DNA of 63,833 nt, filler included, from Bacteroidales bacterium (GTDB taxonomy: Bacteria > Bacteroidota > Bacteroidia > Bacteroidales > CAIWKO01): NCBI GenBank assembly GCA_035389045.1. It is 3 parts of 3 records of this genome, joined end to end, with 100 filler letters (N's around TTAATTAATTAA, not from the genome) between each part and the next. Parts side by side here need not be neighbours in the genome. Positions count along the whole stretch, not along the records: positions 30,187 to 59,400 come from DAOORA010000059.1; 2 more parts are not named here. The stretch is one strand, 5' to 3'. The position numbers are program-made. Below are positions 33,808-39,800 of this stretch, piece by piece (within the stretch, counting starts at the first letter, position 1; each line of letters opens with the position of its first letter).

Positions 33808-36800
33808 TGATACTACTCAATAAGTTTACTATAAGAACCTAACAGGCGAAACAACACACCGGCAGCATGAACATCATTATCACGGGCGCAGGTAAAGGCA
33901 TTGGTCTTGAACTCTGCAAAAGGTTTCTGCAGTATCCCGATATACATATTCTTGCCATTTCACGTGATACCGGTAAGCTGGAAATAATTGCACGTGAACA
34001 TTCATTCCTTCATCCCTGTTCTTTGGACCTGGAAAATGGAAATTATGCCACTGTCATCAATCAACTTTCCTCATTGCCCGGTGGAAAAGCTGCTGTTTTA
34101 ATCAACAATGCCGGATTATTGTTAAAAAAAGCATTTAAAGACCTGAATACCGAAGATAACAAAAGGATGCTGGCGGTAAATTATCTTGCGCCGTTTGAAC
34201 TGATACAGATGCTCCTACCCTATTTTACACCTGATGCCCATATTGTAAACATTAGCAGTATGGGCGGCTTTCAGGGCAGCATAAAATTTGATCAATTATC
34301 CGGTTACAGTGCCTCCAAAGCTGCCCTCGCATGTCTGACCGAATGTCTTGCCGTTGAATTACAGGAGAGAAATATAAAGGTGAACTGTTTATGTCCGGGT
34401 TCTGTTCAGACTGAGATGTTTCAGCAGGCATTTCCGGGAAGTAAAGCTTCGGCAGAACCCGAAAAAATTGCTGGTTTTATCGTTGAATTTGCTTTGAACG
34501 CTCATCATTTTATGAACGGAAAGATCATCCCCCTTTCGTTATCTGTGCCTTGATTTTTTTGATATAAACATACAATTTTTTAATCCGGTTTTCGTTTTTA
34601 GTTCTGGTTTTCACAATAATGTTTATCAAGGTTGCAAAACTTTATAGTTTAGGCAGATAGTGTTAAAAATTAAATTATTTAATATCATATGCCATGAAAA
34701 CAATTAAAATCTTTTGCCTGGCAGCCCTCCTTGTACCATTATGGGGCTATTCACAATCAAAATCATCCATCACCATCAAGTCCATCACCATTGAGAACGG
34801 CGATACAATTGTCAAAGAACGCCATTACAACTCCGACGGCAACGGGATCATATTTGACGACAGTATATTCGGGGATAACAACCAGTTTATCTTTTTTAAT
34901 AATGACTATGACATTGACACTAATTTCTCCGAAAAGTTTCATGAAATTTTCAGTCGTGAGATGAATGATTTCTTTCAGGATTTCAACCACCCTCTTTTTG
35001 ACATGCCTGATAATCCGATAGACTTTTATAAGAAATCGTTCCCATTGAATTTCGATAGCGTATTTTCGGATGAAGACCAAGTCCATCTGCATCCTGATAC
35101 TACTGATGCATCCCGTAATAAAGCAAAATCAGTACCCCCGCAAGCACTACGAAAAAAAAGCATTACTGCGGAAAATATCATATTACCTTACAAACAGCCT
35201 GTCGATGAATTTTTAGCAGAACCTGGTTATGAACAAGGCAGTGTTAAAATTGTCTTTCAGCTCGACCAGCAGAAAAATACCCAGTTGTCTATTAAAGATG
35301 AATCAAAAAAGACAATATATAAAGAAAAGATACCCAGGTCGAAAGGGATATATACCCGGCTTTTTGACTTTAGTGTATATCCATCCGGCATCTATTTCCT
35401 GGAGCTCAGACAGGGAAAAAAATCATCGGTAAGCCGTATTTACAAAAAGGGAAATAATAATTATTTTGATTCAGATTATTAAAAAAATATTATTTTTGTA
35501 TCATGAGTCTTTAGCTCAGCTGGTTTAGAGCGCTTGCTTGACAGGCAAGAGGTCAGCAGTTCGATCCTGCTAAGACTCACCAACAAAGACAAGGGTTTCA
35601 GAGGGTTCTGAAATCCTTTTTTGTTTCAGGGGTCAAGGAAAAGTCAATATTATCAGAAATTTCAAAAATCTTACTATATTCCGGTTTACACAAAAATTGA
35701 CACATAAAAAGTTTTGCTGGTTTAGAGCGTCCCGACGATCCGCCAACCGGCGGATGTCGGGAAGGTCAGCAGTTCTTCCGATAGCCATCGGAACTGCTAA
35801 GACTCACCAACAAAGACAAGGGTTTCAGAGGGTTCTGAAATCCTTTTTTGTTTCAGGGGTCAAGGAAAAGTCAATATTATCAGAAATTTCAAAAATCTTA
35901 CTATATTCCGGTTTACACAAAAATTGACACATAAAAAGTTTTGCTGGTTTAGAGCGTCCCGACGATCCGCCAACCGGCGGATGTCGGGAAGGTCAGCAGT
36001 TCTTCCGATAGCCATCGGAACTGCTAAGACTCACTTAGATAAACAAGGGTTTCAGAGTTTCTGAAATCCTTTTTTGTTTCAGGGGTCAAGGAAAAGTCAA
36101 TATTATCAGAAATTTCAAAAATCTTACTATATTCCGGTTTACACAAAAATTGACACATAAAAAGTTTTGCTGGTTTAGAGCGTCCCGACGATCCGCCAAC
36201 CGGCGGATGTCGGGAAGGTCAGCAGTTCTTCCGATAGCCATCGGAACTGCTAAGACTCACTGCAAACTTCGCACAACTGGTTTTTAAAAAAGGTATTTAA
36301 CCTTCAAGAGATATTTGTATTGTACTTTTTGTCTTGACACAAAAAGTACCAAAAAAGTCAAGAAAATATATACCGAACCTACACACAAGCCACTCCCTGA
36401 CACCGGCATATTTTCAGGCCAGCGCTCTTTGTTTCTGCGAAACAATTCGGTTTTGGGCAGGATATATTTAAAGTCAACGGTATGCTTATAAAAAACAACA
36501 GGCAAATAAACCAAAGGTGTAAATGGAATCTGACAAAATTACGACAAGGGTTTCAGAGGGTTCTGAAATCCTTTTTTATTTCAGTGTGACACAAAAATAT
36601 ACACATAAATGGATTTGCTGGTTTTCAGCCTCCCGATAGTCGCCGCATAACTGATCGTCGGCAAAAGGTCGGCAGCTCTTCCGATAGACATTGGAACTAC
36701 TAAGACTCACTGCAAACTTCGCACAACTGGTTTTTAAAAAAGGTATTTAACCTTCAAGAGATATTTGTATTGTACTTTTTGTCTTGACACAAAAAGTACC

Positions 36801-39800
36801 AAAAAAGTCAAGAAAATATATACCGAACCTACACACAAGCCACTCCCTGACACCGGCATATTTTCAGGCCAGCGCTCTTTGTTTCTGCGAAACAATTCGG
36901 TTTTGGGCAGGATATATTTAAAGTCAATGGTATGCTTATAAAAAACAACAGGCAAATAAACCAAAGGTGTAAACGGAATCTGACAAAATTACGACGAGGG
37001 TTTCAGAGGGTTCTGAAATCCTTTTCTTTCGGGTAACACAACAGTATACACATAAATATATTTACTGGTTTTGAGCCTCCCGATAGTCGCCGCATGGCGG
37101 ATCGTCGTCGGGAAAAGGTCAGCAGTTCTTCCGATAACCATCGGAACTGCTAAGACTCACCAACAATGACAAGGGTTTCAGAGTTTTTTGACTCCTTTTA
37201 TAAAGGCATATAACAATTCAATATTTTATCTTCAGATTCATGCGTGGGATTAGAGTATAATGACTTTTCTGCTTATAAGCCGTAATAATTTTTTGGACAT
37301 TATCATATTTTCCTGTTATTATAAACAGTATGATGGGTAACACAACCATTCTTTGTTTATTTTTGTTACGCATAAATAAACGACCTGATATGTACAAAAA
37401 ATCACTGATAATAATGATATTGTTTACGGCTCAGGTATGTTTCGGCCAGCAAACCGAAGTACTAAGCCATGTTAAAGTGTGGGGCAAAGATTACCGGCAG
37501 CTTACTGATGCAGGTATCACATTAATTAATGGCCATTATTTACATAAATCTTATTTCGATGGAGCGGTGAACATCAAGGATTTAAATAAACTGAAATTAT
37601 CGGGGTTGCCATACGAAATAATCTCCGAAAACCTCACTGAACACTATCAAATCAGAAATCAGCACCCTCAAACCGGTGAAAAGAATATCACATACAACTG
37701 CGGCCTGCCCAAAACTTACTCCACTCCCACACATTTCAACCTGGGCAGCATGGGTGGCTATTTTACCTTAACCGAAGCAATGGCCCAGCTCGATTCCATG
37801 AGGGCCTGGTTTCCCAACCTGATTTCAGCGAAGTCGCAGATCGGATTATCCATCGAAAACCGCCCGGTATATGCTGTAAAAATCTCTGACAACCCCGACA
37901 TCCAAGAGGGCGAAAAACAGGTGCTATACACGTCGCTGCATCATTCATCGGAGCCTTGCAGTATGCAGCAGTTGTTTTTTTTTATGTACTATCTTCTTGA
38001 AAATTATAGTACCGATAGTGAAATAAAGTACCTGATTGACAACCTTGAGTTATATTTTGTTCCGGTCATAAACCCTGATGGCTATGTATACAACCAGAAC
38101 CAGAATCCTGCCGGTGGAGGTACCTGGCGTAAAAACAGAAGGGATAACGGATTGCTTTCTTACGGTGTTGACCTTAACCGCAATTACGGTTTTCAGTGGG
38201 GATATAATAACATTGGTTCGCAGCCTATTGGCAGTTCACCCTGGTACAGAGGCACGGCTGCCTTCTCGGAACCCGAGAGCCAGGCCATGAAATCATTTAT
38301 AGAAGCTCATGAATTTTTACTCGATATGAACTGGCATTCATGGGGAAATTTTCTGATTTATCCCTGGAATTATGAATCAATATTGACCAGCGACTCCACC
38401 CTGTTTGAAGAGTTCTCGCGCTACCTGACCATTGACAGCCATTACCGTTATGGTACCTGTGACCAGACATACGGATACAACAGCAATGGCGATGCCGACG
38501 ATTGGGATTACGGAGATACTACTTCCAAAAATAAAATCATATCGGTCACGGCTGAAGTCGGATCGTCGGTTGACGGATTCTGGCCCAATGCGGCAAACAT
38601 TGAATCATTATGCATCACTGCTCTGGATATGAACCTGCGTTTTGCAAAACTGGGTACACCATACGCTCTTTTGAACGACATTTCACCAACTTATATTTCC
38701 GGCACTTTCGTTAACATTCCGGTTGAGGTTTATTGTCTCGGACTCGATGTGCCGGCCAACTTTGCCGTGAGCATAACACCTATATCCGCTGATATTGTCA
38801 GCACAGGCCTCCCTGTGACATTCAGCGCCATGCAAACCCTTGAGAAAAGATATGACACGGTTGTGCTCAACCTGAATCCTGCCATAATTCAGGGCGCCGA
38901 GGTGTCGTTCTCATTGGATATCAGTAACGGTATTTTCACATGGAAAGATACCATCACAAAAATATACGCCAGTCCCGACACTATTTTTTATGATCCTGCT
39001 GAAAATCTTGTCAATTGGGCAGCAGATGATTTTGCTGTTACTTCCGAAAATTATGTTTCTTTTCCATCATGTTTTACGGAATCACCTTCGGCAAACTACG
39101 GCCTGTTGCAGACGTCGTCATTAGAAATGATTGATGCGCTGGATCTCAGTGCTGCCAGCAGCGCTTATTTTCTTTTCAATGCTAAATGGGAAACAGAAAA
39201 ATCGTACGACTGGGTGCAGGTGCTGGCGTCATCCGATAATGGAAGCACCTGGCAGCCTTTGTGCGGGCGATATTCAGCCTACGGCACTGATGATGAAGAA
39301 GAAGGAGAGCCGGTTTACGACGGGTTGTCCCATAACTGGGTACTGGAAGAAATTTCTCTGGATGCCTTTGTTGGCGGCACCCTGAAGATCAGGTTTGAAT
39401 TTCACAGCGACCAGACCCATAATTTTGACGGTTTTTACCTGGATGATATAACAGTGCTTGCAAATACGTCAACCGTTTCTGCTCAAGCATTTCCAAAGAC
39501 CGACCGGTTCCGGATGTTTCCTAACCCTGCCAATGAACAGATAAATATTGTAGTTTCCGAAACGGATAATTATTCATTCCGGCTGATGGATATCTACGGA
39601 AATCTGGTACCTGTCGAATGGAGAAAGACTGGCAATGTTTTAAAATCAGACACCCGGAATCTTTCCTCAGGTTCGTATTTTTTGCAGGCAATTTCAGAAA
39701 ACACAGTTCTCATAACACAAAAGGTTGTCGTAATTCATTAATACCAGATATCTGCCTGATTTGCAATGAATTGTCATTGTGGATGGAAATGGGATAATAA

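What a model noticed while it worked through the whole genome (the two positions that open the first line are those of the whole stretch)
35505..37160. tRNA-like elements with the anticodon arm replaced by a conserved hairpin, linked to small GIY-YIG genes
Eleven partial tRNA copies lie beside six tRNA species: five in tandem after tRNA-Val(GAC) on C59, and others at C37 16722-16937, C129 3410-3476, C22 56895-56953, C21 53199-53270 and C14 4936-4997. In each, the anticodon arm is replaced by a GC hairpin, usually TCCCGAC...GTCGGGA. At two sites an 81-96-aa GIY-YIG gene sits between the tRNA and the copy, and the others look like ORF-less derivatives. The same elements occur beside tRNA genes across the phylum, so they are a recurrent kind of tRNA-linked cassette and not ordinary integration scars.
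Evidence so far: Sequences and coordinates are in calls 16, 19, 49, 53, 82, 167 and 168. - Aragorn and Rfam do not call them, even at E<=1. - GIY-YIG: Pfam 1e-15 to 2.2e-18 for the four full-length ORFs, 2.4e-8 for the truncated C1 ORF. - 5 of 7 small GIY-YIG ORFs lie within 600 nt of a tRNA gene or element. - The C37 unit equals the G007 cassette minus the ORF. - Related units were found in 12 of 22 family genomes. - The hairpin pattern matched 13 of 400 phylum genomes and 0 when read backwards. - All 9 loci checked lie beside a matching tRNA gene, with arrays of up to 5 units. - Only 1 of 13 viral hits is tRNA-like. - Copy number differs between congeners.
(Added by a program. Inside this text positions count along the whole contig: they may not be those of the stretch shown here. 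"Call 12" and the like, gene names such as g00115 and contig names such as C1 are that model's own, and its searches are not shown. The text may have been shortened before it was handed on; [...] marks where a part breaks off. The agent that wrote the report below was given it as the finding of a first reader that could run no searches.)

Follow-up and report, generated by a model that had tools for sequence, protein, structure and literature searches.

The report
Hairpin pseudo-tRNA array beside tRNA-Val
Behind a valine tRNA gene lie five gene-less copies of a pseudo-tRNA whose anticodon arm is swapped for a conserved hairpin, and in many related bacteria the same pseudo-tRNA ends a tiny nuclease gene sitting directly after a tRNA gene, which looks like an undescribed selfish cassette.

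Summary
tRNA-Val(GAC) at 35505-35582 is followed by five tRNA-derived copies, at 35716-35809, 35943-36036, 36169-36262, 36617-36712 and 37064-37162. In each, a GC hairpin (TCCCGAY...RTCGGGA) takes the place of the anticodon arm and a second hairpin takes the place of the T loop. A terminator follows the real tRNA and four of the five copies; the one after copy 5 is decayed. Aragorn and Rfam call only the real tRNA.

The array carries no ORF and no GIY-YIG remnant. Across Bacteroidota the same design recurs with a gene: tRNA, terminator, an 80-100-aa GIY-YIG nuclease of the UPF0213/Slx1-like kind, hairpin pseudo-tRNA, terminator.
- 54 of 65 informative loci have a same-strand tRNA ending 28-110 nt before the ORF.
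- 63 of 80 loci have the hairpin right after the ORF.
- The hairpin shows compensatory changes.
- Its tRNA-derived flank co-evolves with the local tRNA.
- Orthologous loci in congeners carry 0, 2 or 5 units.

My best reading is a chromosomal, tRNA-gene-linked nuclease cassette that spreads and amplifies by break-induced recombination, like phage SegB. The window array would be a non-autonomous member. The mechanism is inferred; there is no RNA or biochemical evidence. I found no description in print.

The parts
35505..35582 (+). Functional tRNA-Val(GAC), the parent of the copies
   Evidence: Aragorn; Rfam RF00005 at 64.9 bits
35567..36246 (+). Three A units of 227/226 nt. Each holds the tRNA 3' part, a terminator, a spacer of about 95 nt, the D-loop piece and the hairpin.
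   Evidence: the repeat finder family D1: 100%, 100% and 87% identity
35716..35809 (+). Pseudo-tRNA copy 1: D piece 35716-35729, compound hairpin 35730-35762, T-loop hairpin 35776-35793, 3' end 35794-35809
   Evidence: fold -46.5 kcal/mol, z -5.6; model R1 37 bits
35943..36036 (+). Pseudo-tRNA copy 2: hairpins 35957-35989 and 36003-36020
36169..36262 (+). Pseudo-tRNA copy 3: hairpins 36183-36215 and 36229-36246
36617..36712 (+). Pseudo-tRNA copy 4, decayed: first hairpin 36631-36663 no longer pairs well; T-loop hairpin 36679-36696
   Evidence: fold z +0.37; not reported by R1
37064..37162 (+). Pseudo-tRNA copy 5: hairpins 37078-37113 and 37129-37146
   Evidence: fold z -3.2; R1 25.5 bits
35591..35622 (+). 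Intrinsic terminator after the real tRNA. The same hairpin recurs at 35818-35849, 36045-36075, 36546-36577 and 36996-37030. A decayed copy follows copy 5 at about 37168-37209.
   Evidence: 5 terminator-like sites against 1.9 expected; family D5 with 6 copies
36215..36964 (+). Two B units of 450 nt: like an A unit, plus about 270 nt between the pseudo-tRNA 3' end and the terminator
   Evidence: the repeat finder family D2: 300 nt, 98% identity
36311..36454 (+). MITE-like dispersed repeat of about 140 nt inserted in B unit 1. Its twin in B unit 2 lies at 36761-36904.
   Evidence: The same stretch matches nine or more other places in this genome and many in congeners at 70-98% identity

Best explanation
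The window holds a real tRNA-Val(GAC) gene followed by five gene-less 'hairpin pseudo-tRNA' units. They belong to a Bacteroidota-wide family of tRNA-gene-linked cassettes. The complete form is: (optional 5' pseudo-copy behind the promoter), tRNA, terminator, minimal GIY-YIG nuclease (UPF0213/Slx1-like, 80-100 aa), hairpin pseudo-tRNA, terminator.

PROPOSED WORKING.
1. The nuclease has no room for a promoter of its own, so it is made at a low level by read-through of the tRNA terminator.
2. It breaks DNA in or beside the tRNA gene. The likely place is a stem-loop-coding segment that can extrude as a hairpin or cruciform, which is the kind of substrate Slx1-type enzymes cut.
3. The break is repaired by recombination among the tRNA and its pseudo-copies, which serve as homology arms on the D-arm side and on the T-arm/acceptor side.
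4. Depending on the partner, this copies the cassette into an empty allele (homing), adds or removes tandem units (segmental amplification, as shown for phage SegB), or homogenises the copies with the local tRNA.
5. Replacing the anticodon arm, and often the T loop, by the conserved hairpin keeps the copies from acting as tRNAs, and probably from being cut.

The window array would then be a non-autonomous or fossil member, amplifiable in trans by the nucleases encoded elsewhere in this genome (C129/C49, C22, C62).

SHOWN: the architecture, its distribution, hairpin covariation, concerted evolution with the local tRNA, presence/absence and copy-number differences at orthologous loci, and intact catalytic residues.
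INFERRED: nuclease activity and target, homing, trans-mobilisation, and the role of the hairpin.
For: ARCHITECTURE.
- Window anatomy.
- Own genome: tRNA-Val(TAC), terminator, 81-aa GIY-YIG, pseudo-tRNA, terminator at C129/C49.
- Congeners: tandem ORF plus pseudo-tRNA units, three each at tRNA-Pro(GGG) in G014 and at tRNA-Thr(CGT) in G008. There the ORF starts 2 nt after the tRNA and its stop codon lies in the hairpin loop.
- Phylum: 54 of 65 loci have a tRNA ending 28-110 nt before the ORF; 46 of the 54 have a 3' pseudo-copy; 20 of the 54 have a 5' pseudo-copy. 63 of 80 have the hairpin in the context AGAGCA-hairpin-GGGTC. Four of the 11 loci without a called tRNA have a 5'-truncated tRNA-Val before the ORF.

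NUCLEASE.
- Y5, Y16, G18, R26, H30 and E62 are invariant in 21 sequences.
- The profile hits UPF0213 structures 1zg2 (3.7e-18) and 1ywl (3.2e-15), and SLX1 (6.4e-9).
- The family is present in 273 of 401 phylum genomes, is often multi-copy, and forms tandem arrays of up to 5.

HAIRPIN.
- 99.1% of cells are paired. Three of 7 pairs show double changes. The covariation score is 0.505 against 0.126 in shuffles (0 of 500 as high).

RECOMBINATION FOOTPRINTS.
- The 28 nt at the 3' end of the pseudo-copy are identical to the own tRNA in 29 of 45 loci. The own tRNA is the best or tied match in 34 of 40.
- The 5' and 3' hairpins of one locus share the first 7 stem bases in 13 of 24 loci, against 4.75 in shuffles (1 of 10,000 as high).

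PRESENCE AND ABSENCE.
- Orthologous tRNA-Val(GAC) locus: 0 units in G001, G006, G008, G013 and next to the tRNA in G010; 2 units of about 120 nt in G009; 5 in this genome.
- Orthologous tRNA-Val(TAC) locus: no pseudo-copy in G003 and G006; a 5' copy only in G007 and G009; a 5' copy plus an ORF-less 3' unit in G017.

PHYLOGENY. The protein tree clusters by tRNA isotype, with 18 changes against 29.5 in shuffles (0 of 200 as low), while host orders are mixed.

PRECEDENT.
- SegB, a GIY-YIG enzyme in the T4 tRNA cluster, recognises the T-psi-C stem-loop motif of tRNA genes and homes (PMC2330249, abstract read).
- SegB drives recombination-dependent tandem amplification of a tRNA segment (PMC13096335, sections 9 and 10 read).
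Against: - No GIY-YIG remnant lies in the window array, so descent from an ORF-bearing cassette is not shown.
- An 81-100-aa protein with only the catalytic domain has no evident means of sequence-specific targeting.
- The real tRNA inside a cassette keeps its normal anticodon arm and T loop and shows no visible immunity change. This rests on the few orthologues.
- The sequence of the hairpin's outer 5 bp is conserved, which immunity alone does not explain.
- The same hairpin occurs outside tRNA contexts in this genome, nested in other hairpins, and inside T loops. So it may have a life of its own.
- The protein finds no phage or plasmid record at E<=1e-6, so no vehicle between cells is known.
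- The protein tree rests on 88 columns and is poorly resolved.
- The 80 phylum loci were found with one peptide pattern from the Val-TAC subfamily, so they are a biased sample.
Confidence: 0.55

Rival explanations
1. The hairpin is a small REP-like mobile palindrome of this lineage. It lands in the stem-loops of ordinary, decaying tRNA duplications. The GIY-YIG genes are merely neighbours, because both like tRNA flanks.
For: - TCCCGAY..RTCGGGA hairpins occur away from tRNAs: in the middle of heptamer minisatellites, beside a MITE-like repeat, and as a terminator at C80.
- Hairpins are nested. TCCGCC..GGCGGA sits inside the loop of TCCCGAC..GTCGGGA in the window and in G007.
- Hairpins of the same type sit in T loops in independent loci: L103, L106, L108, G009 and the window.
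- At C21 and C14 the hairpin sits at slightly different tRNA positions.
- The B units already carry one unrelated MITE insertion.
Against: - In 63 of 80 loci from many genera and at least eight isotypes, the hairpin replaces exactly positions 27-43.
- It sits directly after a GIY-YIG ORF, and the stop codon can lie inside it.
- 28 of the 29 genomes with the strict pattern carry the nuclease family, against 273 of 401 overall.
- None of the 7 Y1-transposase (RAYT-like) sites checked has such a hairpin within 1.5 kb.
Confidence: 0.2
2. The pseudo-tRNAs work as RNA. They would be tRNA look-alikes without an anticodon loop, acting as a decoy, antitoxin or regulator for the neighbouring nuclease, which would then act on the cognate tRNA. 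The layout promoter, RNA repeats, terminator, toxin recalls type III toxin-antitoxin loci.
For: - The 5' copy lies between the promoter and the tRNA, so it must be transcribed. A terminator separates the RNA part from the ORF.
- Full-length hairpin tRNAs with acceptor, D and T arms exist in G023, and Aragorn calls them odd tRNAs.
- The hairpin covaries.
- Protein clades follow tRNA isotype.
- Dunin-Horkawicz et al. noted a fusion of a prokaryotic Slx1-like domain to a tRNA methyltransferase and suggested a role in RNA metabolism (PMC1564403, passages read).
Against: - Most 3' copies lack the 5' acceptor strand and the 5' D-stem strand, and the 5' copies lack the T arm, so they cannot fold as tRNA.
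- Hairpin loops are short and 77% A+T, with no stable-tetraloop signature.
- G-U pairs do not exceed other mismatches in the hairpin.
- Known GIY-YIG enzymes cut DNA.
Confidence: 0.15
3. The copies are attachment-site scars left by repeated integration and excision of integrase-borne elements at the tRNA gene.
For: - tRNA genes are classical integration sites.
- A true scar exists in this genome: C37:16583-16630 equals tRNA-Pro(GGG) positions 28-75. It lies next to AT-rich DNA that shares a repeated motif with the flank of the intact gene on C43.
- Similar 5'-truncated tRNA-Val pieces precede four cassettes elsewhere.
Against: - The units are 120-450 nt long, and no ORF in the array gave a Pfam hit (3 of its ORFs were scanned, all under 80 aa).
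- The copies carry the D-loop piece and two replaced arms, not an exact 3' repeat.
- The same replaced-arm design recurs phylum-wide.
Confidence: 0.05
4. The array is an assembly artefact of a metagenome bin.
For: Contigs of this assembly break at repeats (C129/C49), and no single public contig spans the array.
Against: - Pieces of the array occur without differences in Logan contigs of two runs of different studies (X1, X2). One of them may be the source sample.
- In X1 the collapsed repeat contigs have depth 77.9 (A unit) and 46-50 (B unit), against 28 for the unique flanks. This is weak evidence.
- Congeners have homologous arrays.
Confidence: 0.03

Closest known systems
SegB, the free-standing GIY-YIG homing endonuclease of T4/T6 phages
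   Same: Both are GIY-YIG genes set among tRNA genes. SegB recognises a conserved tRNA-gene stem-loop motif (T-psi-C), homes, and drives recombination-dependent tandem amplification of a tRNA-containing segment (PMC2330249 abstract; PMC13096335 sections 9-10).
   Different: - SegB is a phage protein of about 220 aa with a DNA-binding part (size recalled, from no call). Here the proteins are chromosomal, 80-100 aa, and consist of the catalytic domain only.
- No phage record matches them at E<=1e-6.
- SegB loci are not reported to carry pseudo-tRNAs with replaced arms. I did not read the supplements of PMC13096335.
UPF0213 / YhbQ / YazA, the stand-alone prokaryotic Slx1-like GIY-YIG proteins (PDB 1zg2, 1ywl)
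   Same: Clear sequence membership. Both are minimal single-domain proteins, as described for prokaryotic Slx1-like members (PMC1564403, PMC7017083, passages read).
   Different: No function or genomic context is given for this family in the papers I could search. The tRNA linkage, tandem arrays and pseudo-tRNA partner are not mentioned there.
attL/attR tRNA fragments of integrase-borne islands
   Same: Both are partial tRNA copies beside a complete tRNA gene.
   Different: Those are exact 3' repeats at the far end of kilobase-sized islands that carry an integrase (PMC9897764, passages read). These units are 120-450 nt long, have no integrase, and carry two replaced arms.
REP/BIME-type palindromic repeats and their RAYT transposases
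   Same: Both are short GC-rich hairpins, dispersed and sometimes nested.
   Different: No such hairpin lies near the Y1-transposase genes of this genome. Here the hairpin has a fixed place inside a tRNA scaffold.
Type III toxin-antitoxin loci such as ToxIN
   Same: Both have the order promoter, RNA repeats, terminator, small nuclease gene (ToxIN layout recalled).
   Different: The ToxN family is an endoribonuclease of another fold. No RNA evidence exists here.

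Membership tests
GIY-YIG superfamily (Pfam PF01541) | GIY and YIG motifs with conserved Arg, His and Glu of the active site | tested here: met
   Pfam 1e-15, 3.3e-14 and 2.2e-18. Y5, Y16, G18, R26, H30 and E62 are invariant in 21 sequences. 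This applies to the cassette ORFs elsewhere; the window array has none.
UPF0213 / stand-alone Slx1-like GIY-YIG | Sequence similarity to BH0048, EF2693 and SLX1, and no further domain | tested here: met
   1zg2 at 3.7e-18, 1ywl at 3.2e-15, SLX1 at 6.4e-9. ORFs are 78-117 aa.
SegB-type homing endonuclease | GIY-YIG domain joined to a C-terminal DNA-binding region | tested here: not met
   The ORFs end 5-20 residues after the catalytic domain. No NCBIfam model is passed; the best is grpIintron_endo at 23.5 bits against a cut-off of 56.
SegB-type homing endonuclease | Gene located among or beside tRNA genes | tested here: met
   54 of 65 loci; 22 of 30 loci in relatives
SegB-type homing endonuclease | Site-specific cleavage of tRNA-gene DNA, and preferential inheritance in crosses | not testable with these tools
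   Needs enzyme assays and genetic crosses
tRNA (Rfam RF00005 / Aragorn) | Cloverleaf with a 7-nt anticodon loop | tested here: not met
   None of the five window copies is called at E<=10. The anticodon arm is replaced.
Integrase attachment-site scar | Exact repeat of the tRNA 3' part at the end of an island that carries an integrase | tested here: not met
   The units are 227 and 450 nt with no ORF of known family, and both arms are replaced. A true scar at C37:16583-16630 looks different.
REP-RAYT system | The hairpins flank a Y1-transposase (RAYT) gene | tested here: not met
   8 Y1_Tnp matches at 7 sites; none has such a hairpin within 1.5 kb
Type III toxin-antitoxin | Toxin of the ToxN/AbiQ endoribonuclease family that processes the repeat RNA | tested here: not met
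   The protein is GIY-YIG. RNA processing is not testable here.

The most novel reading that the evidence does not exclude
The hairpin pseudo-tRNA is a functional RNA partner of the minimal GIY-YIG protein. It would be a tRNA mimic that keeps the body of one tRNA species but lacks the anticodon loop. It would bind, and either restrain or guide, a nuclease directed at that tRNA or its gene. That would make these loci a new tRNA-mimic toxin-antitoxin or guide system present in about two thirds of the Bacteroidota genomes sampled.
Probability: 0.12. Interest if true: 0.9.

Novelty: new variant of a known kind. Interest (0 to 1): 0.72.

Why it matters
- It would give a function and a context to UPF0213, a large orphan family of minimal nucleases. 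The family is present in 273 of 401 sampled Bacteroidota genomes, often in several copies.
- It would show that SegB-like, tRNA-gene-directed nuclease cassettes live in bacterial chromosomes and not only in phages.
- It would explain a class of pseudo-tRNAs that gene finders miscall as odd tRNAs.
- Cultured carriers such as Pedobacter, Sphingobacterium, Chryseobacterium and Kaistella make enzyme and copy-number tests possible.

Tried and rejected
- RNA EVIDENCE. No RNA holder is listed for the stretch. The one metatranscriptome-labelled run laid (X7) covered only the real tRNA region, by one contig at 90-95% likeness. Nothing follows for expression.
- ARRAY SPAN. Laying contigs of X1-X3 gave only fragments, and no contig spans the array.
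- EARLIER FINDINGS. The search of earlier findings was not open.
A 5-sequence alignment worked, but it biases the 80 loci towards the Val-TAC subfamily.
- LOOSE PATTERN. A loose pattern search hit 144 of 401 genomes, but many hits are not hairpins and roughly 28 genomes matched the backward control (counted by eye). I replaced it with the strict pattern.
- ORFs IN THE ARRAY. Three of its ORFs (76, 58 and 76 aa) were scanned; none passes a Pfam cut-off, the best being a chance match at E 0.23.
- NCBIfam. No model is passed.
- PHAGES AND PLASMIDS. No match.
- SPLIT-GENE TEST. I asked whether the 5' and 3' pseudo-copies are the two halves of one older resident gene split by an incoming tRNA-plus-ORF segment. 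One locus fits (L121) and one does not (L091). This is inconclusive.
- STRAND FROM G-U PAIRS. Too few cases.
- LITERATURE. Nine searches found no description of tRNA-linked UPF0213 cassettes or hairpin pseudo-tRNAs. The library lacks most subscription journals. I did not read the supplements of PMC13096335, which list SegB homologues, including some from phages of Bacteroidota.

Full report
WHAT IS IN THE WINDOW. The window is three contigs of one assembly joined by runs of N; the finding lies on the second, C59. Aragorn finds a single tRNA in the whole window, tRNA-Val(GAC) at 35505-35582 on the + strand. Rfam at E<=10 agrees and calls nothing else between 35300 and 37400 except two chance matches.

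Downstream lie five copies of part of that tRNA: 35716-35809, 35943-36036 and 36169-36262 in units of 227/226 nt, and 36617-36712 and 37064-37162 in units of 450 nt. Each copy starts in the D loop (GCTGGTTTAGAGCG) and lacks tRNA positions 1-13. Each has a GC hairpin with stem TCCCGAC/GTCGGGA where the anticodon arm should be. In copies 1-3 a second hairpin, TCCGCC..GGCGGA, is nested in its loop. The copy then continues with the variable loop and the 5' T-stem strand. A further hairpin (TTCCGATAGCCATCGGAA) stands in place of the T loop. The copy ends with the T-stem 3' strand and the acceptor 3' strand.

An intrinsic terminator follows the real tRNA and four of the five copies: 5 sites against 1.9 expected. 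A decayed one follows copy 5. Copies 1-3 fold far better than shuffles (z -5.6), copy 5 less so (z -3.2), and copy 4 has decayed (z +0.37). The extra 270 nt or so of the 450-nt units contain a MITE-like repeat of about 140 nt. It is dispersed in this genome and its congeners, so it is an unrelated later insertion.

The array has no gene. Three of its ORFs (76, 58 and 76 aa) were scanned against Pfam and gave no significant hit. A six-frame search with a GIY-YIG profile finds nothing: best E 0.32, against 3.1e-37 for the positive control.

THE REST OF THE GENOME.
- C37: two Pro-GGG-type units with both arms replaced;
- C129/C49: Val-TAC;
- C22: a Val-CAC 3' piece;
- C21: Gly-CCC;
- C14: Ser-GCT, a 5' copy upstream of the gene.

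At C129/C49 the order is tRNA-Val(TAC), terminator, an 81-aa GIY-YIG ORF, the pseudo-tRNA (D piece, TCCCGAC-agcac-GTCGGGA, intact T arm and 3' end), then the same terminator again. At C22 a 96-aa GIY-YIG ORF precedes the copy, but the matching tRNA is on another contig.

The hairpin also occurs outside tRNA contexts. It sits at the centre of heptamer minisatellites (GGGAGTY)n, whose unit is a rotation of the hairpin arm, and beside a dispersed repeat. This is the main support for the rival that the hairpin is an element in its own right.

THE SAME DESIGN ELSEWHERE. In 41 relatives, 23 genomes have the small GIY-YIG at E<=1e-5, often in tandem. In 22 of the 30 loci fetched a tRNA lies in the locus around the ORF, with partial copies of that tRNA in 21 of them; four pairs of these loci overlap.

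Two congeners show the full form very clearly. At tRNA-Thr(CGT) in G008 and at tRNA-Pro(GGG) in G014 there are three tandem units of ORF plus pseudo-tRNA. In G008 the ORF begins 2 nt after the tRNA, and its last codons and stop lie in the D piece and hairpin of the pseudo-tRNA. The Pro-type units of G007 carry the same T-loop hairpin (TCCGCCGGCTGGCGGA) as the ORF-less units on C37 of this genome, and the same compound hairpin as the window.

A scan of one genome per species found 244 relatives, of which I analysed the best 80. They come from Sphingobacteriales, Chitinophagales, Flavobacteriales, Bacteroidales and others, including cultured species.
- 65 of the 80 have at least 400 nt upstream. 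In 54 of those a same-strand tRNA ends 28-110 nt before the ORF: 35 Val-TAC, 7 Arg-TCT, and smaller numbers of nine other labels.
- 46 of the 54 have the 3' pseudo-copy and 20 have a 5' pseudo-copy.
- 63 of the 80 have the hairpin directly after the ORF, in the fixed context AGAGCA-hairpin-GGGTC. That is exactly in place of tRNA positions 27-43.
- Four of the 11 loci without a called tRNA have a 5'-truncated tRNA-Val before the ORF, which looks like a classical island integration upstream.

The 5' pseudo-copy is tRNA positions 1-26, the hairpin, GGGTCA and a short A-rich spacer. It lies between the promoter and the real tRNA.

A strict pattern with tRNA context occurs in 29 of 401 sampled phylum genomes (21 of 180 genera), with no match to the backward control in any genome. 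The nuclease family itself occurs in 273 of the 401, often in many copies and in arrays of up to five. 28 of the 29 pattern-positive genomes have it.

IS THE HAIRPIN CONSTRAINED? I aligned 47 3' pseudo-copies. The replacement hairpin is paired in 99.1% of cells. Three of its seven pairs show double changes (C-G to U-A in 7 sequences; A-U to C-G in 9; U-A, C-G and A-U at the innermost pair). The covariation score is 0.505 against 0.126 in shuffles, with 0 of 500 as high, and the score collapses when partners are slid.

The outer pairs were partly fixed by the pattern used to collect the sequences. The second pair and the two inner pairs were not. Loops are short (3-4 nt in 46 of 63) and 77% A+T.

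So both a structure and an outer sequence (TCCCG/CGGGA, or TTCCG/CGGAA) are kept. The data do not say whether the constraint acts on DNA or on RNA.

FOOTPRINTS OF RECOMBINATION AND TURNOVER.
- The tRNA-derived 3' part of the pseudo-copy is identical over 28 nt to the tRNA of its own locus in 29 of 45 loci. It matches that tRNA best, or equally well, in 34 of 40 comparisons with same-isotype tRNAs of other loci. Meanwhile the proteins differ by 40-60% between loci. The copies therefore evolve in concert with the local tRNA.
- The 5' and 3' hairpins of one locus are more alike than those of different loci: 13 of 24 share the first seven stem bases against 4.75 expected, with 1 of 10,000 shuffles as high.
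- At the orthologous tRNA-Val(GAC) locus, behind the same upstream gene, congeners have no unit (G001, G006, G008, G013), no unit next to the tRNA but a remnant 1.5 kb away (G010), or two minimal units of about 120 nt (G009). This genome has five.
- At the orthologous tRNA-Val(TAC) locus, G003 and G006 have a bare promoter plus tRNA. G007 and G009 have the 5' pseudo-copy. G017 has the 5' copy and an ORF-less 3' unit.
- Comparing G006 with G017 defines the 5' insertion. After position 26 it adds the hairpin, GGGTCAC, about 24 nt, and a repeat of positions 1-26.

THE PROTEIN. The catalytic Tyr, Tyr, Gly, Arg, His and Glu are invariant in 21 diverse members. A profile matches two structural-genomics proteins named UPF0213 (1zg2 at 3.7e-18; 1ywl at 3.2e-15). 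It then matches eukaryotic SLX1 (6.4e-9), and only faintly I-TevI (0.0023).

[quoted passage not shown] They give no function or context (PMC1564403, PMC7017083, passages read).

The protein tree is poorly resolved (88 columns), but it clusters by tRNA isotype. Pro-GGG, Thr-CGT and Met-CAT each form one group. Overall there are 18 changes against 29.5 in shuffles (0 of 200 as low), while host orders are mixed within clades.

No phage or plasmid record encodes a relative at E<=1e-6.

HOW IT MOST LIKELY WORKS. The closest experimentally known system is SegB of T-even phages. SegB is a free-standing GIY-YIG endonuclease gene inside the tRNA cluster. It recognises the T-psi-C stem-loop motif of tRNA genes and homes (PMC2330249, abstract). 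In T6 its nuclease activity is needed for recombination-dependent tandem amplification of a segment with a tRNA gene (PMC13096335, sections 9-10).

By analogy, and in line with the footprints above, I read the Bacteroidota loci as chromosomal nuclease cassettes that live on tRNA genes.
1. Expression rides on read-through from the tRNA promoter. The ORF begins within a few bases of the terminator, so there is no room for a promoter.
2. Breaks in or near the tRNA gene are repaired among the tRNA and its pseudo-copies.
3. That repair gives gain, loss and tandem growth of units, and concerted evolution.
4. The replaced arms make the copies non-functional as tRNAs and perhaps uncuttable.

The window's array would be a non-autonomous or fossil member. 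The genome encodes at least three intact nucleases of the family elsewhere.

Everything about activity, target and transfer is inference. Four points weaken the model:
- the small size of the protein;
- the unchanged real tRNA inside cassettes;
- the conserved sequence of the hairpin;
- the hairpin's occurrence elsewhere.

I put the model at about 0.55. The rivals stand at about 0.2 for an autonomous palindromic element, 0.15 for an RNA-level role of the pseudo-tRNA, and low for integration scars and for an artefact.

NOVELTY. Nine full-text searches found no description of tRNA-linked UPF0213 cassettes or of pseudo-tRNAs with hairpin-replaced arms. The library lacks most subscription journals, and I did not read the supplements of PMC13096335. 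A paper on tRNA gene fragments in prokaryotes attributes them to CRISPR spacers and to island integration only (PMC9897764, passages read).

I therefore rate this a new variant of a known kind: free-standing GIY-YIG cassettes at tRNA genes. It has three new features: a minimal chromosomal nuclease, a conserved hairpin pseudo-tRNA partner, and ORF-less arrays such as the one in this window.

Noticed in passing
window 30187-30450 (start of contig C59); also C10, C14, C19, C45, C56, C61, C63, C70, C99, C121: Heptamer minisatellites (GGGAGTC/GGGAGTT/AGGAGTC)n, with 24 arrays genome-wide. Several are interrupted by the palindrome TCCCGATAGCTATCGGGA. The heptamer is a rotation of the hairpin arm GTCGGGA. 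Contigs often end in these arrays.
   Followed up: partly
window 36311-36454 and 36761-36904; also window 37-206 (- strand, C58): A MITE-like dispersed repeat of about 140 nt with an internal inverted repeat. It has nine or more further copies in this genome and many in congeners at 70-98% identity.
   Followed up: partly
G000 C37:16583-16630 and C43:30925-31100: A 5'-truncated tRNA-Pro(GGG) (positions 28-75, identical to the intact gene on C43), preceded by AT-rich DNA. The motif aaatttgcacaaaatttgcacaaaaa lies near both. This looks like a classical integrase-type island between C43 and C37 that displaced the pseudo-tRNA units.
   Followed up: partly
L016 (G023:C3) 831-2572; L045, L073, L078, L088, L115: Full-length hairpin pseudo-tRNAs are called by Aragorn as tRNA-??? 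or as tRNAs with odd anticodons (Phe-AAA, Leu-AAG, Ile-TAT, Leu-TAG, Ser-TGA). This is a likely source of false tRNA annotations in Bacteroidota.
   Followed up: partly
G000 C55:7108-7323 and C78:7487-7681: A second subfamily of small GIY-YIG ORFs. The one on C78 is broken by a TAA. It is not next to tRNAs and is followed by a conserved ..ttcctc..ggaatgaca.. motif.
   Followed up: no
G000 C62:17156-17712: A 92-aa GIY-YIG ORF convergent with tRNA-His(GTG). Several GC hairpins, but no pseudo-tRNA, lie between them.
   Followed up: no
G000 C49:396-570 compared with L135, L139, L143-L145: In this genome the tRNA-Val(TAC) cassette points the opposite way relative to the conserved neighbouring gene than the tRNA does in five congeners. 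This suggests an inversion at the locus.
   Followed up: no
G000 C1:30765-31392: tRNA-Arg(ACG) is followed by a truncated GIY-YIG ORF, GC hairpins, and a second, diverged GIY-YIG ORF on the other strand.
   Followed up: no
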